Origin: a virus
UHGV virus genome: UHGV-0279745
Strand: one strand, 5' to 3'
Length of the DNA: 64,000 nt
Below the pieces are notes generated by a model that was given only the letters and a program-made list of their open reading frames with translations, searched no databases and was not told where the DNA came from. The stretch's first letter is position 1. The number at the start of each line of letters is the position of its first letter. This document shows, one piece after another, positions 19,961-40,745 of the stretch. Position numbers and translations under genes: made by a program.

Positions 19961-20005
19961 CCTACCGCCCGATTCTATGGGCGGTAGGTGTTTTTATTTT
20001 TTTTG
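19961..20005 (+). terminator. rho-independent terminator
   Basis: CCTACCGCCC-gattctat-GGGCGGTAGG followed by a T-run. Confidence 0.75.
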
Positions 20006-20020
20006 ATCTGGGAGGTTTTA

Positions 20021-20581
20021 GTGACTACTTACGTACCTGATTTAAGTCTGGCCTCAGCCGAATTAGTGGTCGCTTTAATCAACCACGATAACGGTTCACG
20101 GTTGTCTCTAAACGAAATCCGTATTAGCAACACTATGGCAAACCCGTCCCCGACCACTTCGCGTCGTAACACACTGACAGAGATTACAAAAATCAGGAAA
20201 CCTGATGGTGCTTCTGTGGTTGTTTATTACGACCGTCTGGATGCGGACGAAGTGTTAGCGTCTGAACCTATTTTGATTTCGTTAGACGGTACTGAAGACA
20301 ACCTTCGTGACATTTTAGGTGTTGTAAATGAATTCTGCGGAACGAACTTACAACCCGAAGATTTACGTGCTGCAGATATCACCTTAGGTAACGAACCCAT
20401 TGCTGTTAACGTTGCTGACGATTCTCCTGCGTGGATGAATGCGTTCATGGTAACGTTATTCGATACAACAGAACGAGCATTAGCAAACGAAGATGATGCG
20501 ATCTTCTGTATTGGTGATGATGCCGTTCTTACCTTTGAGGTTCCAGATGACGATTCAGCTGAAGAAAACCCGGCTACATGA
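20021..20581 (+). CDS. family-X paralog (fibre-associated hypothetical protein)
   Basis: Start placed at GTG 20021, 5 nt after GGAGG; the ORF-track start 19988 lies in the terminator. N-terminus VPDLSLASAELVVALINHD and ...VVVYYDRL match five other paralogs. Confidence 0.55.
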   Translation: MTTYVPDLSLASAELVVALINHDNGSRLSLNEIRISNTMANPSPTTSRRNTLTEITKIRKPDGASVVVYYDRLDADEVLASEPILISLDGTEDNLRDILGVVNEFCGTNLQPEDLRAADITLGNEPIAVNVADDSPAWMNAFMVTLFDTTERALANEDDAIFCIGDDAVLTFEVPDDDSAEENPAT

Positions 20582-20783
20582 ACTTGACCGTTTTACCGGT
20601 AATGGAGGCCAAAGCAAACTTTTATCAAAACTTAACAATCCCAAATCATGAAGCGCGGAGTTGGGCATCACTTTCACGTTAGAAGATGATGGATTAAAAC
20701 CAGTATAATAATCCGCTTATAAAAATGTTGAGGGGTAAAACACTTCCTCAGATCTTTTAGCTCCCGATAGAGAATTAAATATC

Positions 20784-23700
20784 ATGGCTAAAGCGGTAAA
20801 GAAAATTCGTTTACACGATTTACGTCCATACACCGGGGATATCGGTGAAGGCGTTTTACTTTTTTCGAAAGACGAAAGGGATTATCAGTTACCTGTCCGC
20901 GAGATTGTTGCGGATATTGACACCGTCAGAAACGCGGTTGCTGACGCACAAACGGCGGCGGCCAAATCGCAACAGTCTGCAACAGAAGCCACACAAGCAA
21001 AAGACTTAGCAGAAACAGCGAAGCAACAAACTGACACGTTAGCTTCCACAGTTAGCGAGCAAGCGGGAACCGTTGCCACTAAAACTGCCGAGGTTAGCAA
21101 AAAACACGCTGAAGTTTTAGCCGCGAAAACTGCCGTAGATACTGTATTACAGTCGGTAAATGAGAAAGCTCAAGCTGTCGCTACAAGCGAACAATCGGTG
21201 ACGGCTGCAGCGGCTGACGTAACTAAGAAAGCAGAAACGGTTACGCAACAGGCCGGACAAGTCCAACAGACGGCTACCGGTGTCGAGAATACTGCGGCTT
21301 CAGTTGAGGCCAGTAAGGGCGCAGTGGAGAAGATTGCTGCACAGGTCGCGAAAGATAAAGAAAGTTCAGAAGGCGCAGCAACACGTTCGGAGTCAGCTGC
21401 CTTACGTGCGGAGAAAATCGCTGCGCAGGGCTTAATCGACGCTAGTACAACCGGTAAAGGTATCGTTAAACTTAACGATACACTGACTAGCGAATCCGTG
21501 ACTGAGGCCGCCACACCGTCCACGGTTAAACAGCTGAATGACGAATTACAGTTAAAAGCCAATAAACATTCGCCGAATTTTACGGGTAAACCGTCATCCC
21601 CAACACCCCCGAAAGATTCAAACGACACGAGTATTTCCACAACGGCCTGGGTGCGTGACGCGATTGCGGAACTGGTTGGTTCTTCACCCGAGACGTTAAA
21701 TACCTTAGCGGAATTAGCTGAGGCGTTAGGTAATGACCCTAACTTCGCAACAACGATTACTGGGGAACTTGCGCAGAAACAACCTCTCAGTCCGTTGCTC
21801 ACCGCCATTGCCGCAGTCACCACAGCGGCAAATAAACTCATGTATTTCACTGGCAGTAATAAAGTCGGATTAACGGATTTTACAGAAACTGCCAGATCCT
21901 TGTTAGCGAAAGGGTCAACTGCGGATATCATCAATTTCTTGGGATTAAAGGCTACTGTAGATAAAGCGAATGGCGCGTTACAGAAAAACTCTAACGGCGC
22001 TGATATCCCAGATAAAGAAACGTTTGCTCGCAATATCGGTCTGTCTCCTGACACCTATCTGCGTTTCCGTGGCGAAATGCCAGTAGATGCTGATATTAAC
22101 ACATTTGCTCCAGATGCCAATTACACAGGAACGTGGGCTAAGTCGACGTCAACCAATGCGTCGATGGCAAAACATTTCCCAGAAGACGGTGCAGTCGGTT
22201 ATCTGGAAGTGTATAAAGCCGGTAATTACAGTGGCGCACAGCGTTTTACCTGCCGTAATGGTAACGTGTACAACCGTATGCTGAGTGGCGCGTGGAATGG
22301 TGCCAATGGACCCTGGTCACCGTGGAGAATGGTAACTACTGGTGTACGTCCATTATCTACCTCTATAGACTTGAACAGTTTGGGTGGCGCTGAGCATATG
22401 GGTAACTGGCGAAACTCAAGCAGTTCGCTGGCTGTTTTTAGCAGACATTACCCTGAAGAAGGTGGCGGTGCGCAAGGCGTACTAGAAGTAATGGAAGGTG
22501 GTCTTTTCGGACGGTTGCAGCGATACACCACACGTCGTGGTACGATGTATGTTCGTGGTTTGACCGCAACGTGGGATTCATCAAACCCGCAATGGGAAGA
22601 TTGGATTCAGGTTGGTTATCAGACTGACGGTGCTTTCTTTAAAGCCAATTTTAACGATCTCGTTAAACCGGGACGTTTCAGTGTCACTGGTGAAGCAACT
22701 AACGGTCCACTTACCGGTTCTTCTGGTGAAACCATATTAGGCGTTTGTGAAGTTACCTTACGCTTAGACGGTACAGGGGTCGAACAGAATTATACTACAT
22801 ACGGTACGGGTACAGAAACTAAAGGTCGTAAATTCCAACGTATCCGTACGGGTAACGCTTGGAGTGACTGGCGTGAGGTTTTCACATCGTATTCGCTTCC
22901 GTTGGTATTAGGTATCGGCGGTGAACGTGCGAATGTTGATCCTTTAGACTGGCAAACCTATGACTTTAAACCAGGTGAGTTAATCTGTACGCCGCTTAAC
23001 ACCATGAAAAATATTCCTACGGGAATGGATTGGGGTGTTATTGACGGTAACTTAGTTAGCATTCTGGTTGGTCCATCAGATGGCGCTACATCAGGCCGGA
23101 GTATGTTGGTTTGGCGTAGTACGGTGTCTACTGCCAACTATCGATTCTTTGCAGTACGTATCGCTGGTGATAAAGGTAGTCGTACGATTACACCACGCCA
23201 GATGCCTGTATTGAATGCAGCACACACCTGGGCAGAAAAACAGACCTTTGCAAAAGGGTTAGCAGGTGAGTTAACAGGCAATGCTTCAACCGCAACGAAA
23301 TTAAAGACCGCACGTAGAATTGGTGGGGTCGCCTTCGACGGTAGTGGTGATATTAACCTCCCAGGTGTTAACCAACAGGGTAATCAAAACACCACGGGTA
23401 ATGCCGGGACAGCCACTAAACTTCAAACTGCCAGAAATATTAACGGTGTGAGATTCGATGGTTCTGCTGACATCAATATCAACACCCTGGTAGGTCGTGG
23501 TCGGGTTACTGCACTAACCGGTTCAAACAAAGGTACGCCTGGTATTCAGATGTACGAAGTTTACAATAACGGTTATCCGACCGCTTATGGTAACTTACTG
23601 CATTTGGGTGGTTCTGCCGCATTAGGTGAAGGTGAACTGTTAATCGGTTGGTCGGGCACGAGTGGTGCGCACGCGCCCGTTTATATTCGTAGTCGACGTG

Positions 23701-25385
23701 ATACAGCGGATGCGCCGTGGTCAGATTGGGCACAAGTTTATACTGCCCGTGATAGTATTCCTGGTGTAAATACCACAGGTAATCAAGATACTACTGGTAA
23801 CGCTGCTACCGCGACGAAACTGAAAACTGCTCGCAGAATCGGGGGCGTTACCTTTGACGGTACTGGGGATATCAATTTACCGGGGGTTAACCAGCAAGGT
23901 AACCAGAATACGACAGGTAATGCAGCAACCGCTACTAAGTTACAAACAGCACGTAAGATCGGCGGTGTTAACTTTGACGGTTCGCAAGACATTAGTCTGC
24001 CCGGTGTGAACCAAACCGGTAACCAATCGACTACGGGGAATGCTGCGACAGCGACTAAGCTCCAGACTGCGCGAAATATAGGTGGCGTAGCTTTTGATGG
24101 TACTAAAGACATCAACTTACCTGGCGTAAACCAAACGGGCAATCAGTCGACCACCGGAAACGCGGCCACTGCAACAAAATTGCAGACAGCGCGTACCATT
24201 AACGGTATCGCATTTGACGGCACCAAAAACATCGAAATAACGGCTGAAAGTTTAAATCTTGGCCAAACTGTAGAATTGGCCGGTGGGTCATTGCAGAAGA
24301 AACAGAATGGTGCCGATATTCCAGATAAGAGAAAATTCTTACGAAATGTTGGTGCCGCGAACACAACAACTGTGTCTTTTAATGGTGGTGCCGGATGGTT
24401 CAAACTGGCAACTGTAACGATGCCGCAAGCCAGTTCCGTGGTTTACATAAGCCTGATTGGTGGTGCAGGGTTTAACGTTGGTTCCCCACATCAAGCAGGT
24501 ATCTCTGAGCTGGTTCTGCGCGCAGGAAATGGGAATCCAAAAGGTATTACTGGTGCGTTATGGCGACTGACCTCAGTCGGCTTCACTAATTTTGCATGGG
24601 TGAATACATCTGGTGACACTTACGATATTTATGTTGAAATAGGTAATTACGCCACCGGTGTTAATATTCAGTGGGATTACACTAGTAATGCCAACGTAAC
24701 GATTCATACATCGCCAAGTTATACGGCTAATAAACCCGCAGGACTAACAGACGGTACCGTCTATCTGATTTACAGCACACACAACAAGCCTAACGCTGGT
24801 GACATCGGTGCGTTACCGTCAGGGGGCGGTACTATAGGTGGCGATTTAACCGTTAACGGTAAATTGGTCACTAAGTACCCTGATTTTCGAATCGCTTACG
24901 GCAACTACGGCTTTATGTTACGTAACGATGGTGCCAATACCTATTTCTTAGTAACCGACGCCGGTCAAGCTGCAACGGGTTCCTGGAACGGTCTACGTCC
25001 GTTGTATTTTAATAATGCTAACGGTCAAGTAACCTTTGGTCATAACGTTACTGGCAGCGGTAACGGTTCGTTTAACGACGTACAGATTCGTTCTGACCGT
25101 CGTAACAAACGTAATCTGGTGAAACTAGATAAAGCTTTGGATCGGTTAGAGTTACTAACCGGTTATTTGTACGAAATTCAGCATCCTGACGACGGCTGGC
25201 AGACCTCTGTAGGTCTAATTGCTCAAGACGCATTAGAAGCGTTACCTGAACTTGTGTCTGAGGATGATGATGTCATTTCAGGCGAAAAACGTTTACGTCT
25301 AAACTACAATGGTGTTATTGCGCTGTTAGTAGAGGGTATGAAAGCGTTGCGTCAAGAGATTAACGAAATCAAAGGGAGATCCTAG
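20784..25385 (+). CDS. long tail fibre protein with C-terminal intramolecular chaperone (S74-like) domain
   Basis: 1533 aa: Ala/Thr/Gln-rich N-terminal region, six 40-aa repeats (GNQxTTGNAATATKLQTAR..GV.FDG..DINLPGVNQ), and C-terminal SDRRNKRN...GLIAQDALEALPELV resembling the autoproteolytic chaperone domain of endosialidase-type fibres. Confidence 0.88.
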   Translation: MAKAVKKIRLHDLRPYTGDIGEGVLLFSKDERDYQLPVREIVADIDTVRNAVADAQTAAAKSQQSATEATQAKDLAETAKQQTDTLASTVSEQAGTVATKTAEVSKKHAEVLAAKTAVDTVLQSVNEKAQAVATSEQSVTAAAADVTKKAETVTQQAGQVQQTATGVENTAASVEASKGAVEKIAAQVAKDKESSEGAATRSESAALRAEKIAAQGLIDASTTGKGIVKLNDTLTSESVTEAATPSTVKQLNDELQLKANKHSPNFTGKPSSPTPPKDSNDTSISTTAWVRDAIAELVGSSPETLNTLAELAEALGNDPNFATTITGELAQKQPLSPLLTAIAAVTTAANKLMYFTGSNKVGLTDFTETARSLLAKGSTADIINFLGLKATVDKANGALQKNSNGADIPDKETFARNIGLSPDTYLRFRGEMPVDADINTFAPDANYTGTWAKSTSTNASMAKHFPEDGAVGYLEVYKAGNYSGAQRFTCRNGNVYNRMLSGAWNGANGPWSPWRMVTTGVRPLSTSIDLNSLGGAEHMGNWRNSSSSLAVFSRHYPEEGGGAQGVLEVMEGGLFGRLQRYTTRRGTMYVRGLTATWDSSNPQWEDWIQVGYQTDGAFFKANFNDLVKPGRFSVTGEATNGPLTGSSGETILGVCEVTLRLDGTGVEQNYTTYGTGTETKGRKFQRIRTGNAWSDWREVFTSYSLPLVLGIGGERANVDPLDWQTYDFKPGELICTPLNTMKNIPTGMDWGVIDGNLVSILVGPSDGATSGRSMLVWRSTVSTANYRFFAVRIAGDKGSRTITPRQMPVLNAAHTWAEKQTFAKGLAGELTGNASTATKLKTARRIGGVAFDGSGDINLPGVNQQGNQNTTGNAGTATKLQTARNINGVRFDGSADININTLVGRGRVTALTGSNKGTPGIQMYEVYNNGYPTAYGNLLHLGGSAALGEGELLIGWSGTSGAHAPVYIRSRRDTADAPWSDWAQVYTARDSIPGVNTTGNQDTTGNAATATKLKTARRIGGVTFDGTGDINLPGVNQQGNQNTTGNAATATKLQTARKIGGVNFDGSQDISLPGVNQTGNQSTTGNAATATKLQTARNIGGVAFDGTKDINLPGVNQTGNQSTTGNAATATKLQTARTINGIAFDGTKNIEITAESLNLGQTVELAGGSLQKKQNGADIPDKRKFLRNVGAANTTTVSFNGGAGWFKLATVTMPQASSVVYISLIGGAGFNVGSPHQAGISELVLRAGNGNPKGITGALWRLTSVGFTNFAWVNTSGDTYDIYVEIGNYATGVNIQWDYTSNANVTIHTSPSYTANKPAGLTDGTVYLIYSTHNKPNAGDIGALPSGGGTIGGDLTVNGKLVTKYPDFRIAYGNYGFMLRNDGANTYFLVTDAGQAATGSWNGLRPLYFNNANGQVTFGHNVTGSGNGSFNDVQIRSDRRNKRNLVKLDKALDRLELLTGYLYEIQHPDDGWQTSVGLIAQDALEALPELVSEDDDVISGEKRLRLNYNGVIALLVEGMKALRQEINEIKGRS
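23265..23483 (+). repeat. tandem 120-bp (40-aa) repeat block 1 within the tail fibre gene
   Basis: Two units encoding G(E/N).(T/N)TGNA.TATKL.TAR.I.GV.FDGS.DIN.... Confidence 0.8.
23778..24240 (+). repeat. tandem 120-bp (40-aa) repeat block 2 within the tail fibre gene
   Basis: About four consecutive units GNQ(D/N/S)TTGNAATATKLQTAR.IGGV.FDG..DI.LPGVNQ. with high DNA-level identity. Confidence 0.85.
25091..25382 (+). other. C-terminal intramolecular chaperone / autoproteolysis domain of the tail fibre
   Basis: SDRRNKRN...LTGYLYEI...GLIAQDALEALPELV matches the conserved pattern of endosialidase-type C-terminal chaperone domains as recalled. Confidence 0.7.
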
Positions 25386-26167
25386 TGGCAGTTGTCGGCG
25401 TAGGTGGTTGGATTGGTTCTTCAGCAAAAGCTGAAACTGGTAACGATTGGATGTCTGGCGCGATGCGCACACTTGGTGTGCCGGTTCCAGGCTGGATGTC
25501 GCAATTGGCGGGAAAATCAAAAGAGGTCCATTATTCTATTGGTGCTAACCATAGCTATAATAAGGATACTCTTATTAACTATTTACGTTCTTTAGGCTCT
25601 ACTGCTGTCGTTGTGACTATTACGGGGGATTTAGTGTCTTATAGTAGCGGAGTTCCTTGTTTAGAGTTCCCTGGCGACCTACCGAACTCCTCCATTACAC
25701 TCGTTATCAATCCTGGGGTTACAGTATACGGCAGAGGAGGCAACGGTGGTTCTAACTCGCCAGGCGGTGCAGGTGGAACCGCAGTACAGAACGGAATAGG
25801 AAACAGGTTACGTATAACTAACCGTGGCGCTATTGCCGGAGGCGGTGGCGGCGGTGGCGGCGGTAACAGGGGTAGACTAATATTTGGTGGTGGCGGTGGT
25901 CGCCCATTCGGTGCTGGTGGGTCTTCCTCTCATATGAGTTCCGGTGCAACTGCTGGTACTATTTCCGCTCCTGGTAAAGGATCTGTTGGTGAGGGGTCTC
26001 TTAGTGCATATACAGGCGGTTCGGGTGGTAATGTCGGTGCTGCTGGAGGAAGATGTAATACTCAAGGTAACGGTACAGAATATAACGGCGGAGCAGCTGG
26101 TAAAGCTGTTACTGGTAATGCGCCAAGATGGGACGCAGTAGGTGCAATATACGGTTCACGTGTTTAA
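25385..26167 (+). CDS. glycine-rich protein (poly-Gly tract), fibre-associated
   Basis: GTG start overlaps the fibre stop by 1 nt (TAGTG); contains GGGGGGGGGN and many GG/GGS tracts. Confidence 0.6.
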   Translation: MAVVGVGGWIGSSAKAETGNDWMSGAMRTLGVPVPGWMSQLAGKSKEVHYSIGANHSYNKDTLINYLRSLGSTAVVVTITGDLVSYSSGVPCLEFPGDLPNSSITLVINPGVTVYGRGGNGGSNSPGGAGGTAVQNGIGNRLRITNRGAIAGGGGGGGGGNRGRLIFGGGGGRPFGAGGSSSHMSSGATAGTISAPGKGSVGEGSLSAYTGGSGGNVGAAGGRCNTQGNGTEYNGGAAGKAVTGNAPRWDAVGAIYGSRV

Positions 26168-26242
26168 TTAAAAAGGAGGGTAGATGGGGTAGCGTCAGGA
26201 TGGGTCGGATCTTCAGCTAGGAATGAAACGGGCGAACAATGG

Positions 26243-26686
26243 ATGAGCGCTGCTGGTAGTAAATTAGGATTGGGTAGACCTTTTATGATGAGTCAAATGG
26301 TGGGAAGATCTATGGGCTGTAAAATTGCAACTGCTGCATATAGCGATTCTTTAGGTAAGAAATGGGGCGCGGTAGGGCCAAGCTGGCCGTTAAACCAGAA
26401 AAATCAGGGAACCATTCAAAACGCGGGTAACTGCGGGGTGGGAACTTTAGTAGGTATCGAGTTACAGTTAACGACGATAGTTGCTAACGCAAAACCCACT
26501 TTAGCGGTTTACTTACAAGGTGGGAGAGCCTCTAACATTACCGTAAATTTAGGTGGCAACACTTGTACGCTGACCTATCAGCAGGTTATTAACGGACAGC
26601 ATTATTACTGGACTAATAACATCAGCGCTGCGTTCCAAAACGTAATGAAATCAACAGGCGCGCTACGTGATTTGCGAATTAGTTAA
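26243..26686 (+). CDS. paralog of the glycine-rich protein N-terminus (5' end uncertain)
   Basis: Homology to the N-terminus of the 25385 ORF (GW[IV]GSSA+xETGxxWMS[AG]A) begins in frame upstream of ATG 26243, directly after the TAA of the preceding gene. Confidence 0.5.
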   Translation: MSAAGSKLGLGRPFMMSQMVGRSMGCKIATAAYSDSLGKKWGAVGPSWPLNQKNQGTIQNAGNCGVGTLVGIELQLTTIVANAKPTLAVYLQGGRASNITVNLGGNTCTLTYQQVINGQHYYWTNNISAAFQNVMKSTGALRDLRIS

Positions 26687-26773
26687 TTATTTTCAACTGA
26701 AATCGTAATTGAGGGGAGGGGGGTGAAATGATTCTAGTAACATTTTATCCCCCTACTGTAGGGGGTAAACTTT

Positions 26774-27289
26774 ATGGGACAATTCGTGCCGGATTTGTCA
26801 CTGACCTCACCTAACATGGTTATTTCGTTGATCAATCACGACCTTCAGCTTGATCTGCAAGAAACCGATGTTGAGTTTAGCGAACTAAAATCTAGCGACG
26901 CGATGGATCGTGATACCACTGCTGTTGTAAAGATCAAACGTCCGGGCAGCAGAACGTTACAGATCTATTACAATCGTTTAACCGCAGAGCGGTGGTTAAA
27001 CCAGCAACCTATTCTGGTAAAGGTCACCGGTAATGGCTTTACTACGCACGATCTGATCGACGGAATTAATGCGGTCTGTGGTAGTAATTTACAAGCCGAC
27101 GATCTTACCGACGAATCATTTACCGTAGGGAGGGACGCTGTAACATTACAAGTTTCACCCAACTCGCTAGGTTATAAAGGCCAATTCTCCGTTCTGGTTT
27201 TCGGTAACGATGAAGAAGCCGCAGTAACAAAAGACAACGATTTGATCGTTACTGCAGATAATCGTGTCTTAACATTCGGAGGTCACTAA
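26774..27289 (+). CDS. family-X paralog (fibre-associated hypothetical protein)
   Basis: MGQFVPDLSLTSPNMVISLINHD and ...LQIYYNRL are paralogous to 20021-20581; precedes the second fibre-like gene. Confidence 0.55.
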   Translation: MGQFVPDLSLTSPNMVISLINHDLQLDLQETDVEFSELKSSDAMDRDTTAVVKIKRPGSRTLQIYYNRLTAERWLNQQPILVKVTGNGFTTHDLIDGINAVCGSNLQADDLTDESFTVGRDAVTLQVSPNSLGYKGQFSVLVFGNDEEAAVTKDNDLIVTADNRVLTFGGH

Positions 27290-27909
27290 TGGCTGAACTG
27301 GTAGGAAAGGTACGCGTTCACGAACTACCGACACTTTCAGAAGACGTCACAGGTGTAGTCGTCTTAGCGTCTAAAGAACAAACTGAATACCAACTCCCGA
27401 TTGAAAAATTAGGGGGTGGTGAGGTTACAGTGAGTCCGTCGGCGAATAACATCCTTAAGTCTAACAGTGATGGGTTGTTTGTTAATGGTGCGCATCCGAT
27501 TGTACCAAAAATAGATGCAAAAACCGTATCGGGAAATATGGTAGTAGAAAAAACGTTGACGGGTGGTGCGGTAATCTGCAAAACAACGGTTGACGTTAAT
27601 AACAGGCTGGGTGTTACGCAATTATCAGGGGTATCAATTTATAGCCAGTGTCTGTTGGAAAATAAACTGGTTTACCTGGCAGCAGATGGTGGTATTATTG
27701 ATGCGTACTTCTACGTTAGTGGTACAAAAACCACAGCGAGTACAATAACCCACACCATTCGGGTTGTCTTAGCGAAAGTACCTTCTAAAGTTGTCGATAT
27801 CACCGATTTGTCTGAAACCGAAGTACAATACGAGAATAGTAATTTACCTGTTAAGATCGTTATTAAACATCTTGCAGGGACAACACTTTCTCAGAACGGA
27901 ATGAAATAA
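27289..27909 (+). CDS. short tail-fibre-like protein (fibre N-terminal domain paralog)
   Basis: N-terminus MAELVGKVRVHELPTLSEDVTGVVVLASKEQTEYQLPIEKL is paralogous to the N-terminus of the 1533-aa fibre; ATGA coupling with upstream gene. Confidence 0.6.
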   Translation: MAELVGKVRVHELPTLSEDVTGVVVLASKEQTEYQLPIEKLGGGEVTVSPSANNILKSNSDGLFVNGAHPIVPKIDAKTVSGNMVVEKTLTGGAVICKTTVDVNNRLGVTQLSGVSIYSQCLLENKLVYLAADGGIIDAYFYVSGTKTTASTITHTIRVVLAKVPSKVVDITDLSETEVQYENSNLPVKIVIKHLAGTTLSQNGMK

Positions 27910-27916
27910 TTTTTAG

Positions 27917-27956
27917 GTAGTAGGGGCTTAGCCCCTACTACCTTTTTTATTTTTTC
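27917..27956 (+). terminator. rho-independent terminator
   Basis: GGTAGTAGGGGC-tta-GCCCCTACTACC followed by a T-run. Confidence 0.8.
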
Positions 27957-28002
27957 TCAGATATATATTACCTAGAGGAGAGTGAAATTTACGTTCACTC
28001 CA
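27951..28002 (+). promoter_or_regulatory. conserved promoter-like motif (copy 3) with downstream stem-loop
   Basis: TTTTTTCTCAGATATATATTACCTAGAGGAGAG, then stem-loop GGAGAGTGAA...TTCACTCC. Confidence 0.5.
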
Positions 28003-32965: not shown

Positions 32966-33742
32966 ATGAAAACTGTTGAGTTTAAAAATAGCAGTCTTTG
33001 GGCATACTCGCACATCATTACGAGTTTCCTGAAAAACGTTACTTCGCACCTCGCTTATCAGTTTTGTGGAAATGAGCTCACTATCGGTGGTTTTAACGAG
33101 GAAGAATTAAAACGTGCAAAAGAGTTCATTGACGATGTTCTTCATGGTGATGCGACGTGTTTAGTTGCGAGTTACGTTGCTAAAGACAAAGGAAGATTAA
33201 ACATCATGGCAATTTTCAGGGCGCTCTCCGAAAAAGTATACGAAGTTGAGAAGGTTAGTCATGGCGTTTATATTGTTTACTTTAAACGTTCGGCGGAGAA
33301 AAACGCTGATAAACTTCTGGAGTATTTCGACTGTAACCCAGGGGAAGGTATGGATGTTTATACGCTCGGTTATGATGGGGTACCTCACCGGAATAACCTT
33401 ATTCGTATTGACGAACCTTTTTCAGTCAATGATAGCTCCACGCCTATAGAGTTGGTTCTGGTACACAAAGATCGATTCGCGCATTACGATTCTGATACTA
33501 TTCAACGTGTCCTGAACAACGTTAATATACAGTTTTCACAAACCGAACACCTGGTACGTGCTTGTGTTAGGTCTAACGGCACAACATCATTTTTCCTCGA
33601 ACGTCAAATCGTTTGGCAGACTTATCTGGCTTTGATGGAAGAACTCGATAGGATCGAACCAGTTCAGGTTGGTACAAATTGCTTATATTGGATAAAAACA
33701 AAGGGGTTCATGAATGAAAACACTCAATTCAGATTTGCGTGA
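32966..33742 (+). CDS. hypothetical protein
   Basis: 258-aa ORF. Confidence 0.5.
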   Translation: MKTVEFKNSSLWAYSHIITSFLKNVTSHLAYQFCGNELTIGGFNEEELKRAKEFIDDVLHGDATCLVASYVAKDKGRLNIMAIFRALSEKVYEVEKVSHGVYIVYFKRSAEKNADKLLEYFDCNPGEGMDVYTLGYDGVPHRNNLIRIDEPFSVNDSSTPIELVLVHKDRFAHYDSDTIQRVLNNVNIQFSQTEHLVRACVRSNGTTSFFLERQIVWQTYLALMEELDRIEPVQVGTNCLYWIKTKGFMNENTQFRFA

Positions 33743-34142
33743 TTATATCCGTAAGTATCCAGCCAGTATTCCTGTACTGGCTTCACTTACGCTTTCAGGT
33801 ACTGACGTTAACGTCTTAACTGTGGAACAATTTCACGAGATAATAAAAACCGCATATAACTCCATTACCGCAACGTCAGTACGTAAACGTTGCGATTACC
33901 CAGACGGTGATTTCGGTACAGAGATGTTTACCGATTACGCGGTTGCGTTTCTGTTAGGCCGACACTGTCTCGATAAACTTAACACTGCTGTAGAAGGGGA
34001 AACAGTGACGGAAATAGTCAATGCTTGGCAGCAACGTATTCTGAATGACCCTTACTGTCGCCAAGCGTTAAAACGTATGTCCACAACGGCGATTACAAAC
34101 GACCAGCGTGCTTTAGAGTTCTTTAAGCACAACTACAGCTAA
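33714..34142 (+). CDS. hypothetical protein (paralog of 35008-35439)
   Basis: Shares L+DxIRNYIR..P and W..R..NDP...MS.T with the 35008 ORF. Confidence 0.5.
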   Translation: MKTLNSDLRDYIRKYPASIPVLASLTLSGTDVNVLTVEQFHEIIKTAYNSITATSVRKRCDYPDGDFGTEMFTDYAVAFLLGRHCLDKLNTAVEGETVTEIVNAWQQRILNDPYCRQALKRMSTTAITNDQRALEFFKHNYS

Positions 34143-34163
34143 TTTACCAAAAGGAAAAATGAC

Positions 34164-35007: not shown

Positions 35008-35439
35008 ATGTTTTTCGTACTAAAAGATGAAATCCGTAACTACATTCGTAACAACCCGATTGCTCTGGGCGTTTTAGCAGGTTTCTGTCGTCCAAATACT
35101 GATTTCGATTTAGTTAAGTTAGAAGAATATCAGGAAATTGTGAATACTAACTACTTGCACATCTGTAGCTGGGGTAAACGCCCTCGCGAAGAGTACCCTG
35201 TAGGTGAGTTAGGTGACACTATGCACCGTGACCAGAATCTGATGCACGAATTCGTTGAATACACACTGGAAAATCTTAACTATCCGCTTCTGGTCGACAC
35301 TGTACCAGAAATGGTTGACGAGTGGTTAAGTCGTGTTTACAATGATCCTACTGCCAGCACCCTGCTGAGCCAGATGTCGCAAACTTCTCGCGATATCGAC
35401 ACCCGCACGCTGATGTACTTAGCACACAACGTTCGTTAA
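35008..35439 (+). CDS. hypothetical protein (paralog of 33714-34142)
   Basis: Paralogous N- and C-terminal motifs; terminator follows. Confidence 0.5.
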   Translation: MFFVLKDEIRNYIRNNPIALGVLAGFCRPNTDFDLVKLEEYQEIVNTNYLHICSWGKRPREEYPVGELGDTMHRDQNLMHEFVEYTLENLNYPLLVDTVPEMVDEWLSRVYNDPTASTLLSQMSQTSRDIDTRTLMYLAHNVR

Positions 35440-35446
35440 TCTCACT

Positions 35447-35500
35447 CCGCTATAGGCTTCGGTCTATAGCGGAATTAATTTTCTTTCCCTTTTCTTTTTT
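35447..35500 (+). terminator. rho-independent terminator
   Basis: CCGCTATAG-gcttcggt-CTATAGCGG followed by a T-rich tract. Confidence 0.65.
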
Positions 35501-35605: not shown

Positions 35606-36454
35606 ATGTCTCTTACGTCAAAACAGAAACTGCTAAAACTCATCAACACTGAAAACAATATTGTTCCGCCATTGACCTTCAGTGATGTTGATATCGGCGA
35701 ACCTACTGGTACTAGGGTTGATACCCAGGTGGTTCTGACTTCTAAACTCAAAGGCGATGAGTCTACTACTTTAACAGTGACTTACCATCGTCGTAATTTG
35801 CCCGAATACCTAACAGGTGAATTGGTATTCGGTAACGACGGTGTTGTAACCGCTACAGATTTGCTTAATGCAATCAACGCAAAATACGATTTAAATATCC
35901 TGCCGTCGGATATCGTTGATGCGAAAGTTGAAGGTGAAACCCATCAGCTTACCGCTAACGAGAAATCCTACGAATGGTGTGGCGAGGTGACACTTACGCT
36001 ACGCGATCCTATTGATCTGGCTAAACTGTTACCTGTTACTCAATTAGAAAACCTGGTAGAGTATCCGTCCACTAAGAAAGGTAACGCAGCGGTTTATTCT
36101 TATCCAATTGACTTCACCGCAGAAAAAGATTACCTCGATCCGATTACCATTAACGACACTGTCGACCTGGCTGAGTTAGCCACTAAACTGGTCAACGTCG
36201 TTGATGAGAAATGGGTAAGCGTACCTAAAAACGCTGCTAATAACCTCTACGGTGCTAAGGTTATCTACGATGGCCCTACCGCAGGTTACGAAGGTGCAAA
36301 TACGAAGTACACGCGTGTGCTGGTACTCGCACTCAGTGGACTGTGTGCTAACCTGACCGGTAATCTGTTAATCCACTTTAACGGTACCGATCGTCCGAAG
36401 TCGAAGATTGAATTAGCTAAAACTAATTCGGTCTTACCGGGATTCTTAGATTAA
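35606..36454 (+). CDS. family-X paralog (putative virion-associated protein)
   Basis: N-terminal KLINTENN...LTFSDVDIGEP...TLTVTYHRRNL matches the family-X signature. Confidence 0.55.
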   Translation: MSLTSKQKLLKLINTENNIVPPLTFSDVDIGEPTGTRVDTQVVLTSKLKGDESTTLTVTYHRRNLPEYLTGELVFGNDGVVTATDLLNAINAKYDLNILPSDIVDAKVEGETHQLTANEKSYEWCGEVTLTLRDPIDLAKLLPVTQLENLVEYPSTKKGNAAVYSYPIDFTAEKDYLDPITINDTVDLAELATKLVNVVDEKWVSVPKNAANNLYGAKVIYDGPTAGYEGANTKYTRVLVLALSGLCANLTGNLLIHFNGTDRPKSKIELAKTNSVLPGFLD

Positions 36455-36467
36455 GAGGATTACAGTA

Positions 36468-36944
36468 ATGACCAGTCAAGAAACTATCTTCGACCTTATT
36501 AAAAAGGCTAACCCAGACGCTGAGCTTGACACCGCCAAAGTTACATTGGGTGAGCCCGTCGTAAGTACCGGTGCGTACAACACCGAAGTTACGGTTGCGT
36601 CAATTAAGAATCTCGGTTATGCTAATAAGCAAACGTTCCAGTATAACCGCATCGATGCAGGTTTGTATTTCCTCAACGTATTGCCGAAACTGTTAGTTGA
36701 ATCAGCCACCACGACTGCGGACCTGTTGCCTGTAATTAACGAACAATATGGCTTAACCCTTACTGAAGACGACGTATGGGTAGAGCAGGTTGGTGAGTTA
36801 CCGCTGGACGGCAGCGCAATCGAGCACGGCATTTTCTTCCGTCCTGAGTGCCTAACCTGGGTCGGTGGTTTTACAGTGCGCGTTGCGCGTAAACCGACTG
36901 TTGAAACACCGCCAGCTAATCCATCGCGCGCTAAGAAGAAATAA
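36468..36944 (+). CDS. family-X paralog (putative virion-associated protein)
   Basis: DLIKKANPDAELDTAKVTLGEP...TFQYNRID matches the family-X signature; terminator follows. Confidence 0.55.
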   Translation: MTSQETIFDLIKKANPDAELDTAKVTLGEPVVSTGAYNTEVTVASIKNLGYANKQTFQYNRIDAGLYFLNVLPKLLVESATTTADLLPVINEQYGLTLTEDDVWVEQVGELPLDGSAIEHGIFFRPECLTWVGGFTVRVARKPTVETPPANPSRAKKK

Positions 36945-36947
36945 CGA

Positions 36948-36984
36948 CAGGGTGGGGTAATCCCACCCTCTTTTCTTTTTTTGT
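36948..36984 (+). terminator. rho-independent terminator
   Basis: AGGGTGGG-gtaat-CCCACCCT followed by a T-run. Confidence 0.75.
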
Positions 36985-37005
36985 GTAAAAGAGGAGTTAA
37001 ACAAA

Positions 37006-37596
37006 ATGGCCGAACGTTGGACTAAAGAAGGTATTATTGCTTCGAAAACAGATTTAGAAGGAGGGTACGTAAACGACCCTGACGATAAAGGTGGGGAAAC
37101 CTGTCACGGTGTAACACTAACAACTGCACGCGAATACGGGTATAAAGGGAGAATGAAGGATCTGACCCGTGCGCAGGCGTTTGATATTTACGATCGCGGT
37201 TGGTGGAAGAAACTTAAACTCGATGAGATTTTAGCTATCTCACCCTTACTCGCAGACCGGATGTTTGATTTTGCTATTAACTCTGGCCGCGTTAACTGTG
37301 TGAAATCGTTACAACGTATTCTGAACGTTTTAAATAACGAAGGGAAACTTTACGCAGATATTGACACTGATGGCGGTATGGGACCTAAAACGCTAGGTGC
37401 CCTGAATGCTTATCTGAATTACCGTAAAGACGAGGGGTTAGGCATCTTAATCTTTGCCTTAATCTCACACCAGGTAACTTACTACACAGAAATCTCCGAA
37501 AAGCGTAAGAAGAATGAAAAATTCGCTTACGGTTGGTATGCGCGTGTGTTCAGGGAAATGCCGGATTATGTGGCGAAGGCGGGGTTAGTAAAATGA
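37006..37596 (+). CDS. GH108-family lysozyme-like peptidoglycan hydrolase (putative endolysin)
   Basis: N-terminal KTDLEGGYVNDPDDKGGETCHGVT matches the GH108 signature (EGG..D..D.GG.T..G[IV]T) as recalled. Confidence 0.7.
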   Translation: MAERWTKEGIIASKTDLEGGYVNDPDDKGGETCHGVTLTTAREYGYKGRMKDLTRAQAFDIYDRGWWKKLKLDEILAISPLLADRMFDFAINSGRVNCVKSLQRILNVLNNEGKLYADIDTDGGMGPKTLGALNAYLNYRKDEGLGILIFALISHQVTYYTEISEKRKKNEKFAYGWYARVFREMPDYVAKAGLVK

Positions 37597-37697: not shown

Positions 37698-37712
37698 GGG
37701 AAGGTGTGGGTA

Positions 37713-38378
37713 ATGGAGAAGCTTCAATATAAACGTTTAGACAATAAGTGGTTTGTATTAACGGAGGATTACCATTATCCGTTTACGTTACGTGAAATTT
37801 ATCACGACCACGTACACTTAGACCGTGCGGTTTATTTAACGGGTGTATTGCCTGACACACAACTGTGGTTAACGGCACCGAAAGGGTTCGTTACCGATTT
37901 AGCGTCGATTCCTGAACACCTCCAGGGAATTTTCCATCCTGACGGGCCGTGGGCACCTGCGGCCTGCATTCACGACCTACTCTATCAAAAATGCAGTACG
38001 GAACGTAGCTATCCCATGACACCGGGTGGTAACGTTTCGCGTATTATCGACAAAGAGTTTTCTGACTTAACGTTCCTGCGTATTATGCAGTCGTTAGAAA
38101 TCTCGCCTTATATCTGCCAAACATTTTATAAGGCCGTCGTTGAATTCGGCTGGGATTCCTACGTAGATCCTAATGCAAAGCCATCCTACAACACTAACGC
38201 GTTTCGTACGTTAGATTATAATCGAAACTATTTATTCGTTCGCGAGTTTAAGGAACCTGCAATCCCTGACCACGAACGTATTGATATCACCACAGATCAG
38301 CCCGTTAATGTCAAATACCTGAACATCAAACGTGCTTTTCTGTCTGGGAGGGAAGATGTTTCATCCAAATCCGAGTAA
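37713..38378 (+). CDS. DUF1353-like protein
   Basis: GFVTDLASIPEHL...ACIHDLLY resembles the DUF1353 signature (F.TDGASIP...HD.LY); ATG 37713 preferred over GTG 37704. Confidence 0.45.
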   Translation: MEKLQYKRLDNKWFVLTEDYHYPFTLREIYHDHVHLDRAVYLTGVLPDTQLWLTAPKGFVTDLASIPEHLQGIFHPDGPWAPAACIHDLLYQKCSTERSYPMTPGGNVSRIIDKEFSDLTFLRIMQSLEISPYICQTFYKAVVEFGWDSYVDPNAKPSYNTNAFRTLDYNRNYLFVREFKEPAIPDHERIDITTDQPVNVKYLNIKRAFLSGREDVSSKSE

Positions 38379-38871
38379 CTTTAAACTCAAAGAGTTAGTA
38401 CCACAGTCTTATATTGCCAAATACGGCGATTCTGCAATTCGGTTTATGAATCCGTTGTTAATGATTTCGCTACAACAGATTCGTAACCGTTTCGGTAGAA
38501 TGGTGATTAACTCGCCTGCTGCGCAACAGCGTGGCCTAAGAACCTTAGACTTTTTCATCAACCAAGAAAAGCCTAAAGGCGGTAACTATAAACAACGTGC
38601 TTTACAACTCTACTCTGATTCGGGGAGTCAGCACAAGTTCGGTAATGCGATTGATGCAACGTTGTTGGACAGTACCGTAAAGCAGGTTCACGACTACATC
38701 GCCGCTAACCCTGATGAGTTTCCGTTCATTCACTTTATTGAATGCGACATCAGTTGGTTACACATCGACGTTCGTAACCAACCTAACATTACTTTCTGGT
38801 CACCAAATCGAGGTACTGTGAAAGTGGTTAAGCAAAAACCAATCGACTGGAGCTCCTTAGTCGAGATTTAA
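38356..38871 (+). CDS. peptidase M15-like (zinc D,D-/L,D-peptidase fold) cell-wall hydrolase (putative)
   Basis: SGSQHKFGNAIDAT and SWLHIDVRN resemble the M15 zinc-ligand motifs (SxHxxGxAxD ... H.D); ATG 38356 follows GGGAGGGAAG. Confidence 0.5.
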   Translation: MFHPNPSNFKLKELVPQSYIAKYGDSAIRFMNPLLMISLQQIRNRFGRMVINSPAAQQRGLRTLDFFINQEKPKGGNYKQRALQLYSDSGSQHKFGNAIDATLLDSTVKQVHDYIAANPDEFPFIHFIECDISWLHIDVRNQPNITFWSPNRGTVKVVKQKPIDWSSLVEI

Positions 38872-38954
38872 CTATTTCTAAGGTGTTTATACCTTATTTT
38901 GTATAAAGACGCTTAGAATGCGTTCTACGCACGATTTGACGGTTAAAATGAATA

Positions 38955-38990
38955 TACCCTACTCCTTATCGGGAGTAGGGTAGTTTTTAT
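38955..38990. terminator. terminator between convergent genes
   Basis: ACCCTACTCC-ttatcg-GGAGTAGGGT followed by TTTTTAT on the plus strand. Confidence 0.65.
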
Positions 38991-39469
38991 TATTCCGCAG
39001 GATGGAGCATTGTTCCGGTGTCAGGAGCTACACCTTCTTTACAGTGGAAGAAAGTAATGCCTTTACCATCACCCGTTTTATATTCTAAAGTAGAATACGC
39101 AAACGTTGGTGTTTTTGAAAGTAACCCATTTACACGGTAGTAACGTTGCCCCGTGATAGGATCGATATTTCCATTAACTTTACCTAATAAATCTTTATAA
39201 AGTTGGGGTGACTCAATCTTACCATTTGGCCAAGTGGCTACCCAGTTAGCGCCAGTATCGATCACAGTTACTGAACCTAACATTAGGTTAGTCGAACTAA
39301 CGACAGGTTTGTAATTTACAAAATCCTGCTCTACACCCATACAGGTGTAAATAACCATGTCGTGTGGCTCTACGGGTACAGTTGAGAATTGGCCGTTAGC
39401 GGTGGGTTGTAAAGCACATCCTGCTAATGAAAAAACACCAACCATAGCGATAAGAAAACGTTTTAGCAT
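38990..39469 (-). CDS. lipoprotein (signal peptide with lipobox LAGC)
   Basis: MLKRFLIAMVGVFSLAGCALQP has a type II signal peptide/lipobox; start trimmed from the ORF-track 39529 to ATG 39469. Confidence 0.6.
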   Translation of the reverse strand: MLKRFLIAMVGVFSLAGCALQPTANGQFSTVPVEPHDMVIYTCMGVEQDFVNYKPVVSSTNLMLGSVTVIDTGANWVATWPNGKIESPQLYKDLLGKVNGNIDPITGQRYYRVNGLLSKTPTFAYSTLEYKTGDGKGITFFHCKEGVAPDTGTMLHPAE

Positions 39470-39531
39470 GTTTTCACCTTTTATAAAAAAGTTAAAAATA
39501 ATAATTTTACAGACGACCCTTACTGCCATCT

Positions 39532-39560
39532 GTCATAACTATTAAAACCACTTCTATAAT
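39532..39560 (+). promoter_or_regulatory. putative sigma70-like -10 element upstream of high-expression family-X gene
   Basis: TATAAT at 39555-39560, 48 nt upstream of ATG 39608, in a divergent intergenic region; -35 match is weak (GTCATA). Confidence 0.3.
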
Positions 39561-39607
39561 CCGAACAATACTATGCAATCCACCCTGCCACACACGAGGT
39601 AAAAACG

Positions 39608-40144
39608 ATGGCTAAAGCTTTCAATCTGCAGCTCATTGAAGCTGTTAAAGCTAAAAACCCAGACACTGCGTCTAAACTGACCGTAGAAGACGTTGATTTT
39701 GGCGCTGTTGCTGCGTTCAGCGGCAAATCTGGACGTAATACTAAAATTACGCTGACTGCAAAAGAAAAAAGTGCTAACTTTACCGGCAGCAAAGAATTCC
39801 ATTATATCCGTCTGGCATCCCAAGACCTGATCGGTGCTAAAGCTTACCAGCAGGAAGGTAGCCTCGAACTGGAAAACGCTGCCATTGTAGCCAAACTGAA
39901 CGAAGAGATGGTTACTAAAGGTTATGTAGATGACGCGTTTGCAGAAGGCGAACTCACCATCGAAAAATCTGATGGCGAAAGCGGTGCTAAAGTTTACACC
40001 GTTAAAGTAAACGATGCGCACATCAAATTCTTAGCCGGTACCATTGCCACCTTCACCTATACCAACCCGGTTCCTCCGAAGGTAGCTCTGAGCGGCCTGG
40101 AAGGTGAACTGGATAGCTTCACCGCTCCGGGTATCGGGGGCTAA
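39608..40144 (+). CDS. family-X paralog with high-expression codon usage (putative abundant virion protein)
   Basis: Family signature (TKITLTA...FHYIRL); strongly biased codon choice (CTG, CCG, GGT/GGC, CGT, AAA, GAA) unlike neighbours. Confidence 0.65.
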   Translation: MAKAFNLQLIEAVKAKNPDTASKLTVEDVDFGAVAAFSGKSGRNTKITLTAKEKSANFTGSKEFHYIRLASQDLIGAKAYQQEGSLELENAAIVAKLNEEMVTKGYVDDAFAEGELTIEKSDGESGAKVYTVKVNDAHIKFLAGTIATFTYTNPVPPKVALSGLEGELDSFTAPGIGG

Positions 40145-40214
40145 GTAAGTTAAATCGGGGAGGGGGTAACCTCCCCGATATTTCTTTAACTCGTACTATT
40201 AAGGATTTAAGATA

Positions 40215-40745
40215 ATGGCAGCTACTAACCAGATGATGTTGGTCGCGCTTTATAATGCTGCTAACACTGAGCTACCACATCAGATTACTGATAAAGAAGT
40301 GTCCTTTGGTCTCCCTACTGCGCTGGAAGGCGAAGGTAAGAATACCAAAGTTACCATGACTGCACTGCCGGGTTCTGAGAATTTCAAAGGCGCAATCGAA
40401 CTGAAATACGATCGTCTGGAGCCGGGTGTTGTAGGTCGTATTGAGCTAACTGACGATCTGTCTCGCTGGGTTCAAGAAAATGAACTGCGCGCTTGGTTAC
40501 AATATTACATCAACAAAGTAAAACCTGACGACGCTATCGCACCAGCTGACGTTGTGTACAACACCGAAGACCAGAAAGACGAACATGAAAACGTCACTCT
40601 GCGTACCGTGACGTGCACCGTTACTGAAAGAAACCTCCGTTATAAACCAGGTGTAATGGCAACTTTCGTAATTACGCCGAAAGTTGTTGATAATCGTATT
40701 GACCTGGCCACCACCAACGGCGAGCTGGACGGTTTTACGTCCTAA
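40215..40745 (+). CDS. family-X paralog with high-expression codon usage (putative abundant virion protein)
   Basis: Family signature (TKVTMTAL...LKYDRL); similar codon bias; bidirectional terminator follows. Confidence 0.65.
   Translation: MAATNQMMLVALYNAANTELPHQITDKEVSFGLPTALEGEGKNTKVTMTALPGSENFKGAIELKYDRLEPGVVGRIELTDDLSRWVQENELRAWLQYYINKVKPDDAIAPADVVYNTEDQKDEHENVTLRTVTCTVTERNLRYKPGVMATFVITPKVVDNRIDLATTNGELDGFTS

What the first reader, a model, noticed from the sequence alone, without database searches (positions are those of the whole stretch)
19988..40745. Six-member paralogous protein family (family X); two copies have high-expression codon usage and two precede fibre genes
Six ORFs (20021-20581, 26774-27289, 35606-36454, 36468-36944, 39608-40144, 40215-40745) share an N-terminal ~70-aa signature: a [DN]LI[KN]..N-type segment, then a T[KE][IV]T[LM]T stretch and a [YF].Y.R[LI] motif. 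Two copies sit immediately upstream of the tail-fibre genes, and the last two use codons typical of highly expressed E. coli genes, unlike surrounding genes. This suggests a diversified family of abundant virion proteins (decoration or fibre-adaptor); I cannot name the family.
Basis: seen in the sequence. Interest (0 to 1): 0.7.

Follow-up and report, generated by a model that had tools for sequence, protein, structure and literature searches.

The report
Jumbo-phage DUF7941 virion filament proteins
The six related genes are real members of a known jumbo-phage virion protein family (Pfam DUF7941, SPN3US "paralog family B"); relatives are among the most abundant virion proteins and are proposed to form host-catching filaments, so this is correct but largely already described.

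Summary
All six ORFs exist as stated, and each matches Pfam PF25613 (DUF7941) above its curated cut-off. No seventh member is in the window.

They form three pairs:
- **X1/X2:** orthologues of SPN3US gp122.
- **X3/X4:** related to phiKZ gp127, SPN3US gp138/gp141 and Goslar gp22.
- **X5/X6:** related to SPN3US gp160 and Goslar gp23.

The codon claim holds. X5 and X6 have the two highest codon adaptation values of 63 window genes (0.68 and 0.58; window mean 0.37). Their homologues are among the most abundant virion proteins in SPN3US and Goslar.

X1 and X2 each precede a receptor-binding gene. Those downstream genes share a conserved ~42-residue N-terminal module.

The window is a Seoul-like chimallivirus (phiKZ-type jumbo phage). 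The family was described in 2016/2017 as SPN3US paralog family B and in 2026 as Goslar DUF7941 filaments. The best explanation is head-to-tail polymerising virion filament subunits plus fibre adaptors.

Where the proteins sit on the virion is disputed in the literature, baseplate or head. Small additions here are a conserved C-terminal "GELDGF" tail, an adaptor-plus-anchor cassette, and a relic of a swapped fibre gene.

The parts
20021..20581 (+). X1: short DUF7941 protein (186 aa), adaptor subtype (phrog_2935), orthologue of SPN3US gp122.
   Evidence: Pfam PF25613 68.4 bits. 45% identity to SPN3US gp122, E=2e-45. GTG start with a GGGAGG ribosome-binding site after a terminator hairpin.
20547..20651 (+). 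34-codon relic ORF (MTIQLKKTRLHELDRFTGNGG...). It is the 5' remnant of an earlier receptor-binding-protein gene and overlaps the X1 stop codon.
   Evidence: Matches positions 1-22 of the anchor-module HMM with E=9e-6. Sequence read directly.
20784..25385 (+). Long tail fibre (1533 aa). It has an N-terminal ~42-residue anchor module and a C-terminal Gp34_trimer plus Peptidase_S74 chaperone.
   Evidence: Pfam and PHROG hits. Module alignment.
25385..26167 (+). T-even-type gp38 fibre adhesin.
   Evidence: PF05268 232.6 bits. The DNA is 81-85% identical to gp38 of the RB49-group phages listed (JSE, RB49, Phi1, AV108).
26243..26686 (+). Second, partial gp38-like adhesin ORF.
   Evidence: Gp38_N 26.3 bits; phrog_1121 E=4e-32.
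26774..27289 (+). X2: short DUF7941 protein (171 aa), adaptor subtype, paralogue of X1.
   Evidence: PF25613 62.3 bits. X1-X2 E=3e-31. Its stop codon overlaps the next ATG.
27289..27909 (+). 206-aa putative receptor-binding protein. It carries the same N-terminal anchor module as the long fibre. In relatives this slot holds a 706-aa SASA-esterase protein.
   Evidence: Module HMM E=1e-24. phrog_33169 C-terminal domain. Related loci.
35606..36454 (+). X3: full-length DUF7941 (282 aa) with N-terminal domain, linker and C-terminal domain. Homologue of phiKZ gp127 and SPN3US gp138. It has an extra 23-residue C-terminal tail ending NSVLPGFLD.
   Evidence: PF25613 181.6 bits. PDB 9xqd_0 PHIKZ127 E=8e-7. 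44.5% identity to gp138.
36468..36944 (+). X4: N-terminal-domain-only DUF7941 (158 aa). Closest to the N-terminal domain of the abundant SPN3US gp141.
   Evidence: PF25613 102.6 bits. 40% identity to gp141, E=3e-25.
39608..40144 (+). X5: short DUF7941 (178 aa) with the highest codon adaptation in the window. Orthologue of the abundant SPN3US gp160. Carries the conserved C-terminal tail LSGLEGELDSF.
40215..40745 (+). X6: paralogue of X5 (176 aa) with the second-highest codon adaptation. C-terminal tail LATTNGELDGF.
   Evidence: PF25613 38.5 bits. X5-X6 E=1e-16. CAI 0.580. Best window match of Goslar gp23.
35446..35473 (+). Terminator-like hairpin upstream of the X3-X4 unit.
36949..36969 (.). 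Terminator-like hairpin directly after X4.
40154..40179 (+). Terminator-like hairpin directly after X5.
40758..40788 (.). Bidirectional terminator-like hairpin after X6.

Best explanation
The six genes encode members of the chimallivirus DUF7941 virion protein family (SPN3US paralog family B), in three functional pairs.

**X5 and X6** are the bulk subunits. They are made in very large amounts from their own terminator-bounded, codon-optimised transcription units.

**X3 and X4** are the counterparts of phiKZ gp127/gp126 and Goslar gp22. In phiKZ, gp127 caps each spoke of the outer peripheral baseplate.

As proposed for Goslar gp22/gp23, the subunits join head to tail. A conserved tail or linker after the globular N-terminal domain (here the 'GELDGF' C-terminal peptide) docks on the N-terminal domain of the next subunit. 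This gives long flexible filaments attached to the virion that increase the chance of meeting a host.

**X1 and X2** are adaptor-type members. Each is co-inherited and translationally coupled with a receptor-binding protein whose ~42-residue N-terminal module probably plugs into the adaptor. Different receptor binders can then be mounted: a T-even-like fibre with gp38 adhesin, a small binding protein, or an esterase in relatives.

**Shown here:** family membership, fold of X5, codon bias, gene adjacency, conserved module and conserved tail.

**Taken from the literature on homologues:** abundance, filament formation, baseplate location.

**Inferred:** the docking roles of the tail and of the N-terminal module.
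For: - **Family membership:** Pfam hits for all six. PHROG 'virion structural protein' families.
- **Baseplate position in phiKZ:** the structural atlas places gp127 at the end of the gp139 spoke (PMC13250141).
- **Goslar data:** gp22 and gp23 are present at hundreds to thousands of copies. Purified gp22 forms filaments. AlphaFold3 predicts head-to-tail oligomers. Three paralogues are fused to carbohydrate-binding, hydrolase or leucine-rich-repeat domains.
- **Orthology to the abundant proteins:**
- **Codon adaptation:** CAI ranks 1 and 2 of 63. CAI tracks abundance in SPN3US.
- **Transcription units:** terminators bracket X3-X4, X5 and X6.
- **C-terminal tail:** it is the most conserved block in X5 orthologues (0.92). 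It recurs at the extreme C-terminus of SPN3US gp145, gp148, gp151 and gp160. It is confidently packed in the X5 model.
- **Adaptor-module adjacency:** an adaptor gene followed by a module-bearing gene is conserved in this clade, SPN3US and two Erwinia phages. Adaptor and module identities co-vary (rho 0.74).
- **Fold distribution:** BFVD fold hits include long jumbo-phage 'tail fiber/tail protein' entries.
Against: - SPN3US proteomics found the whole family, including gp160, gp141 and gp138, in purified tailless particles, and assigned them to the head (PMC5105663, PMC5694885).
- SPN3US gp122, the X1/X2 orthologue, was not detected in virions.
- No filament density has been resolved on Goslar or phiKZ beyond one gp127 N-terminal domain per star lobe.
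- The X2 model was poor (pLDDT 52.8).
- Adaptor-module co-variation is also expected from plain co-inheritance.
Confidence: 0.6

Rival explanations
1. The proteins are head components, either internal proteins packaged with the DNA and possibly ejected, or proteins attached to the head or neck. They are not baseplate-anchored filaments. This is how SPN3US paralog family B was originally assigned.
For: SPN3US family B members, including gp160, gp141 and gp138, were detected in CsCl-purified tailless particles of the gene 64 amber mutant. Densitometry of that mutant supported more than 300 copies each of gp160 and gp141 per capsid. The Goslar preprint does not discuss these data.
Against: - phiKZ gp127 is modelled in cryo-EM density at the outer peripheral baseplate.
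- Purified Goslar gp22 forms filaments, and some paralogues carry receptor-binding-type domains.
- The family is not listed among the SPN3US head proteins cleaved by the prohead protease.
- Self-assembled filaments, or neck/collar attachment, could explain carry-over with tailless heads. This last point is inference.
Confidence: 0.2
2. X1 and X2 are not virion parts. They are dedicated assembly chaperones for the receptor-binding protein encoded next to them. They would use the DUF7941 N-terminal domain to hold the fibre's N-terminal module during folding or attachment.
For: SPN3US gp122 was not found in virions, whereas its neighbours gp123 and gp124 were. X1 and X2 are tightly or translationally coupled to the downstream gene. 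Their CAI is average (0.41 and 0.37).
Against: Small proteins present at 6-18 copies are easily missed by mass spectrometry. All other tested family members are virion proteins. In Goslar the DUF7941 module is covalently fused to receptor-binding domains, which argues for a structural connector.
Confidence: 0.18
3. The six-way similarity is a chance resemblance of short motifs, and only the X1/X2 and X5/X6 pairs are truly related.
For: Pairwise BLASTP between X5/X6 and X1/X2 is not significant. hhalign between the two subfamily profiles gives E=0.039 and probability 1.3%.
Confidence: 0.02

Closest known systems
Goslar gp22 / gp23 and eight further DUF7941 proteins (bioRxiv 10.64898/2026.04.21.720040)
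   Same: Same Pfam family. It has a full-length member (N-terminal domain, linker, C-terminal domain) and a short member (N-terminal domain plus tail) next to a GH108-type endolysin gene. The short form is the most abundant. gp23 best matches X6 and X5, and gp22 best matches X3. gp23 ends with a related ...ADGF tail.
   Different: - Sequence identity is only about 25-35%.
- Goslar has ten members, three of them fused to receptor-binding-type domains.
- In this window the receptor-binding proteins are separate polypeptides behind adaptor-type members.
- This window has two tandem short abundant-type genes, X5 and X6.
Salmonella phage SPN3US paralog family B (gp138-154, gp160, gp83, gp237, possibly gp122; PMC5105663, PMC5694885)
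   Same: Clear orthologues in conserved gene order: X1 with gp122 (45%), X3 with gp138 (44.5%), X4 with the gp141 N-terminal domain (40%), X5 with gp160 (46%). The abundant members have high codon adaptation in both phages. The same C-terminal NGELDGF tail occurs on gp145, gp148, gp151 and gp160.
   Different: - SPN3US has a 17-gene array between gp138 and the endolysin; this phage has only X3 and X4.
- SPN3US has one gp160-type gene and one gp122-type gene; this phage has two of each.
- The SPN3US authors placed the family in the head.
phiKZ gp127 (and gp126), outer peripheral baseplate, PDB 9XQD (PMC13250141)
   Different: phiKZ has about three members and one modelled gp127 per star lobe. 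gp127 ends at the ...LLIHYN motif and lacks the extra C-terminal tail seen on X3. The tails and filaments are not resolved experimentally.

Membership tests
Pfam PF25613 DUF7941 (chimallivirus virion protein family; SPN3US paralog family B) | Match to the family profile above the curated gathering score (27 bits). | tested here: met
   Scores of 68.4, 62.3, 181.6, 102.6, 34.5 and 38.5 bits for X1 to X6.
Pfam PF25613 DUF7941 (chimallivirus virion protein family; SPN3US paralog family B) | N-terminal globular domain with the fold of the phiKZ gp127 N-terminal domain. | tested here: met
Pfam PF25613 DUF7941 (chimallivirus virion protein family; SPN3US paralog family B) | Encoded by a phiKZ-like (Chimalliviridae) jumbo phage. 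| tested here: met
   Gene order matches SPN3US, with 45-54% protein identity. Relatives sit on contigs of about 220-227 kb. Chimallin itself was not looked for in the window.
Pfam PF25613 DUF7941 (chimallivirus virion protein family; SPN3US paralog family B) | Incorporated in the virion, some members at hundreds to thousands of copies. | not testable with these tools
   Indirect only. CAI ranks 1 and 2 for X5 and X6. Orthologues are abundant in SPN3US and Goslar.
Pfam PF25613 DUF7941 (chimallivirus virion protein family; SPN3US paralog family B) | Head-to-tail self-assembly into filaments through the linker or tail docking on the next N-terminal domain. | not testable with these tools
Indirect support: the C-terminal tail is the most conserved block and is confidently packed in the monomer model.
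Phage tail-fibre assembly chaperones / adhesins (T4 gp38, gp57A, Tfa-type, DUF1353-type) | Sequence match to a known chaperone or adhesin family. | tested here: not met
   X1 and X2 match only DUF7941 in Pfam. The true gp38 (25385-26167) and the DUF1353 chaperone (37704-38378) are separate genes.
Capsid decoration proteins (Hoc/Soc-like, Ig-like decoration) | Match to a decoration-protein family or an Ig-like fold. | tested here: not met
   No such Pfam or PHROG hit. The X5 fold search against the PDB returns only phiKZ gp127 as a credible hit.

The most novel reading that the evidence does not exclude
The adaptor-type members (X1/X2, SPN3US gp122) and the conserved ~42-residue N-terminal module on the downstream proteins could form a plug-and-socket system. 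It would mount interchangeable receptor-binding proteins on the DUF7941 filament network: a long T-even-like fibre with gp38 adhesin, a SASA esterase, or small binding proteins. The C-terminal 'GELDGF' peptide would be the common plug for subunit-to-subunit joining. This would be a split-gene version of the fused DUF7941-receptor-binding proteins of Goslar. It would also explain how these phages swap host range, as the relic 5' gene fragment at 20547-20651 suggests.
Probability: 0.3. Interest if true: 0.5.

Novelty: new member of a known kind. Interest (0 to 1): 0.3.

Why it matters
The family is one of the most abundant and least understood components of nucleus-forming jumbo phages. Its location is currently contradictory in the literature: head in SPN3US, baseplate filaments in phiKZ and Goslar.

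This window adds no new kind of system. It does offer a compact, well-delimited set for experiments: two bulk subunits, one full-length and one truncated gp127-type pair, and two adaptor-plus-receptor-binder cassettes. With it one could test filament assembly, the role of the conserved C-terminal tail, and how receptor-binding proteins are attached and exchanged. That bears on host-range engineering of jumbo phages.

Tried and rejected
- **Pairwise BLASTP** among the six supports only three tight or moderate links. It cannot by itself join X5/X6 to X1/X2.
- **hhalign** between the X5-family and X1/X2-family alignments was not significant: E=0.039, probability 1.3%, low alignment diversity.
- **AlphaFold2 of X2** with 19 sequences gave pLDDT 52.8. 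It was too poor for a fold search, although its order of secondary-structure elements resembles X5.
- **An HMM of the six** found no seventh member. The best other hit (3905-4567, E=0.21) has no Pfam match and belongs to a different PHROG.
- **An exact look-up of X5** found no record. The closest relative is 98% identical and lies in metagenome scaffolds with the same gene order.
- **Megablast** of the fibre region found no closely related phage genome, only fibre-tip and gp38 segments.
- **Rejected readings:** capsid decoration, chaperone families, and acquisition of X5/X6 from the host. Homologues occur only in jumbo phages.
Full report
**Observation.** The six ORFs are present on the + strand at the stated coordinates. 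X1 should start at GTG 20021. A GGGAGG ribosome-binding site lies 5 nt upstream. The alternative GTG at 19988 sits in the 3' arm of a terminator hairpin (19961-19988) followed by a T-run. Orthologues are also 186 aa.

All six proteins match Pfam PF25613 (DUF7941) above its 27-bit gathering score:

| Protein | Bits |
|---|---|
| X1 | 68.4 |
| X2 | 62.3 |
| X3 | 181.6 |
| X4 | 102.6 |
| X5 | 34.5 |
| X6 | 38.5 |

They also cross-hit the same PHROG 'virion structural protein' families. These split them into three pairs: X1/X2 phrog_2935, X3/X4 phrog_1037, X5/X6 phrog_4862.

Pairwise BLASTP alone is weaker. X1-X2 gives 3e-31, X5-X6 gives 1e-16, and X3 to X1 or X2 gives about 3e-5. X5/X6 against X1/X2 is not significant, and hhalign between those two subfamily alignments is not significant either.

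**Codon usage.** I derived codon weights from 28 E. coli MG1655 ribosomal-protein, rpoA and elongation-factor genes and scored 63 window genes.

| Gene(s) | CAI | Rank / note |
|---|---|---|
| X5 | 0.677 | rank 1, z=+4.0; reference set mean 0.684 |
| X6 | 0.580 | rank 2, z=+2.75 |
| X3 | 0.462 | rank 6 |
| X4 | 0.449 | rank 9 |
| X1 | 0.412 | average |
| X2 | 0.368 | average |
| Window | 0.373 | sd 0.075 |

Terminator-like hairpins bracket X3-X4 (35446-35473 and 36949-36969) and follow X5 (40154-40179) and X6 (40758-40788). X5 and X6 are thus separate, dedicated expression units.

**Genome context.** The window has no close DNA relative among 50,697 phage records, apart from fibre-tip and gp38 segments. 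Its proteins are 45-54% identical to Salmonella jumbo phage SPN3US and Erwinia relatives, with conserved gene order.

Closer relatives (55-98% for X5) occur on contigs of about 220-227 kb from metagenomes and from E. coli, Salmonella and Shigella isolate assemblies. This matches the 'Seoul-like persistent jumbo phages' already described (bioRxiv 10.1101/2024.12.31.630880). The window is a divergent Seoul-like chimallivirus.

**What is known about the family.**
- SPN3US workers defined 'paralog family B' (gp138-154, gp160, gp83, gp237, possibly gp122) as virion proteins. gp160 and gp141 are more abundant than the tail sheath by spectral count per mass. The whole family was assigned to the head because it was present in tailless particles (PMC5105663, PMC5694885).
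- The phiKZ structural atlas places one gp127 at the end of each gp139 spoke in the outer peripheral baseplate (PMC13250141).
- A 2026 Goslar preprint names the DUF7941 family and finds ten members. It estimates about 2140 copies of gp23 and about 580 of gp22 per virion, and shows that purified gp22 forms filaments. It predicts head-to-tail oligomers, notes three members fused to carbohydrate-binding, hydrolase or leucine-rich-repeat domains, and proposes a baseplate-anchored 'fibre cloud' for host recognition. It does not discuss the SPN3US head assignment.

**Orthology.** From:
- X1 with SPN3US gp122: 45%, E=2e-45.
- X3 with gp138: 44.5%, E=5e-71. X3 also matches phiKZ gp127.
- X4 with the gp141 N-terminal domain: 40%, E=3e-25.
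- X5 with gp160: 46%, E=3e-43.
- Goslar gp23 best matches X6 and X5. Goslar gp22 best matches X3.

The two codon-optimised genes are therefore the counterparts of the proteins measured as most abundant in two other phages. As a check on the proxy, among 22 detected proteins of one SPN3US region the three most abundant family members (gp141, gp160, gp143) have the three highest CAI values. Overall Spearman rho is 0.41, p=0.055.

**Fibre neighbourhood.** The gene after X1 (20784-25385) is a genuine 1533-aa tail fibre with Phage_fiber_2, Gp34_trimer and Peptidase_S74 domains. It is followed by a gp38 adhesin and a second partial gp38-like ORF.

The X2 stop overlaps the ATG of a 206-aa gene (27289-27909), with a GGAGG inside the end of X2. 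That protein is not a long fibre. Its first ~42 residues are homologous to the N-terminus of the long fibre.

The same module heads several other proteins:
- the 706-aa SASA-esterase/DUF6645 protein that occupies this slot in relatives;
- SPN3US gp123, a virion protein not flagged as head, which directly follows gp122;
- the equivalent genes in Erwinia phages Asesino and pEa_SNUABM_29.

Adaptor and module identities co-vary across seven cassettes (rho 0.74). This shows co-inheritance and is compatible with physical pairing.

A 34-codon ORF overlapping the X1 stop (20547-20651) matches the first 22 module positions (E=9e-6). It is a relic of an earlier downstream gene and a footprint of fibre replacement.

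**C-terminal tail.** X5 and X6 end in ...LSGLEGELDSF... and ...LATTNGELDGF.... X3 carries a degenerate copy (...NSVLPGFLD) on a 23-residue extension beyond the point where phiKZ gp127 and the Pfam model end.

The same NGELDGF ending occurs on SPN3US gp145, gp148, gp151 and gp160, proteins of 175-498 aa. Goslar gp23 ends with a related ...ADGF.

Among 26 X5 orthologues this tail is the most conserved 10-residue block, at 0.92. It is modelled with pLDDT of about 90. X1/X2-type proteins have their own conserved ending, D..VLTFG.

**Explanation and rivals.** The best-supported reading is as follows.
- X5/X6 are bulk filament subunits.
- X3/X4 are the gp127/gp126-type members that, by analogy with phiKZ, connect to the baseplate periphery.
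- X1/X2 are adaptors for exchangeable receptor-binding proteins.

The main rival is the SPN3US head assignment. It rests on direct proteomics of tailless particles and is not resolved by anything I could compute.

[quoted passage not shown] Chance similarity is excluded.

**Novelty.** The family, its abundance and its likely role are already published. This window contributes six new members in an uncharacterised Seoul-like phage. It adds modest new details: the adaptor-plus-anchor cassette, the conserved C-terminal tail, a relic of fibre exchange, and a much contracted gp138-154 array with duplicated gp160- and gp122-type genes. I rate it a new member of a known kind, with moderate-to-low interest.

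Noticed in passing
window 20547-20651 (+): A 34-codon ORF (MTIQLKKTRLHELDRFTGNGG...) overlaps the X1 stop. Its first ~20 residues match the conserved N-terminal anchor module of the fibre and receptor-binding proteins. It appears to be the relic 5' end of a gene displaced when the present long fibre was acquired. Relatives have a 43-codon gene call at the same place.
   Followed up: partly
window 24360-26169 (+): The distal fibre and the gp38 adhesin gene are 81-86% identical at DNA level to T-even-like RB49-group phages (JSE, RB49, Phi1), to a 107-kb phage (CMS-2020a) and to a Yersinia phage. The rest of the 8.1-kb fibre region searched (19900-28000) has no near DNA match. This points to horizontal exchange of a fibre tip and adhesin between a jumbo chimallivirus and unrelated myoviruses. 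A second, partial gp38-like ORF follows at 26243-26686.
   Followed up: partly
window 27289-27909 versus L005/L006/L007 10517-12637: The slot after the X2 orthologue holds a 706-aa SASA (sialate O-acetylesterase-type) + DUF6645 protein in relatives but a 206-aa protein here. Only the ~42-residue N-terminus is shared, so this is a variable receptor-binding slot.
   Followed up: partly
window 46361-61417 (-): Three giant virion proteins (1727, 1401 and 1440 aa) form a second paralogous family (BLASTP 1e-18, 5e-11, 3e-6; cross-hitting PHROGs). A fourth, 435-aa protein at 46361-47668 is linked to them only by a shared hit to phrog_2163. By size and position they probably correspond to SPN3US paralog family C (baseplate/fibre proteins similar to phiKZ gp131); this correspondence was not checked directly.
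   Followed up: partly
window 33714-34142 and 35008-35439 (+): Two paralogous ORFs of 142 and 143 aa and unknown function (34% identity, E=6e-27). The second has the third-highest codon adaptation in the window (0.529) and sits just upstream of X3.
   Followed up: no
window 36454-37006 versus SPN3US JN641803 115393-135425 (L003): SPN3US has a 17-gene virion-protein array (gp138-154; about 20 kb including gp155) between the X3 orthologue and the endolysin. This phage has only X3 and X4 there. My six-protein HMM does not recognise SPN3US gp146, 147, 149, 150, 152 and 153, which the SPN3US authors included in family B.
   Followed up: partly
homologue lists for X5 and X2; loci L005-L007, L011-L013: Close relatives of this phage occur as contigs of about 220-227 kb in E. 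coli, Salmonella and Shigella isolate assemblies as well as in metagenomes. This matches the published 'persistent virulent Seoul-like jumbo phages' in bacterial assemblies.
   Followed up: partly
window 39554-40021 (-): A 155-aa antisense ORF lies fully inside X5. It is most likely a shadow ORF of a strongly codon-biased gene, not a gene.
   Followed up: no
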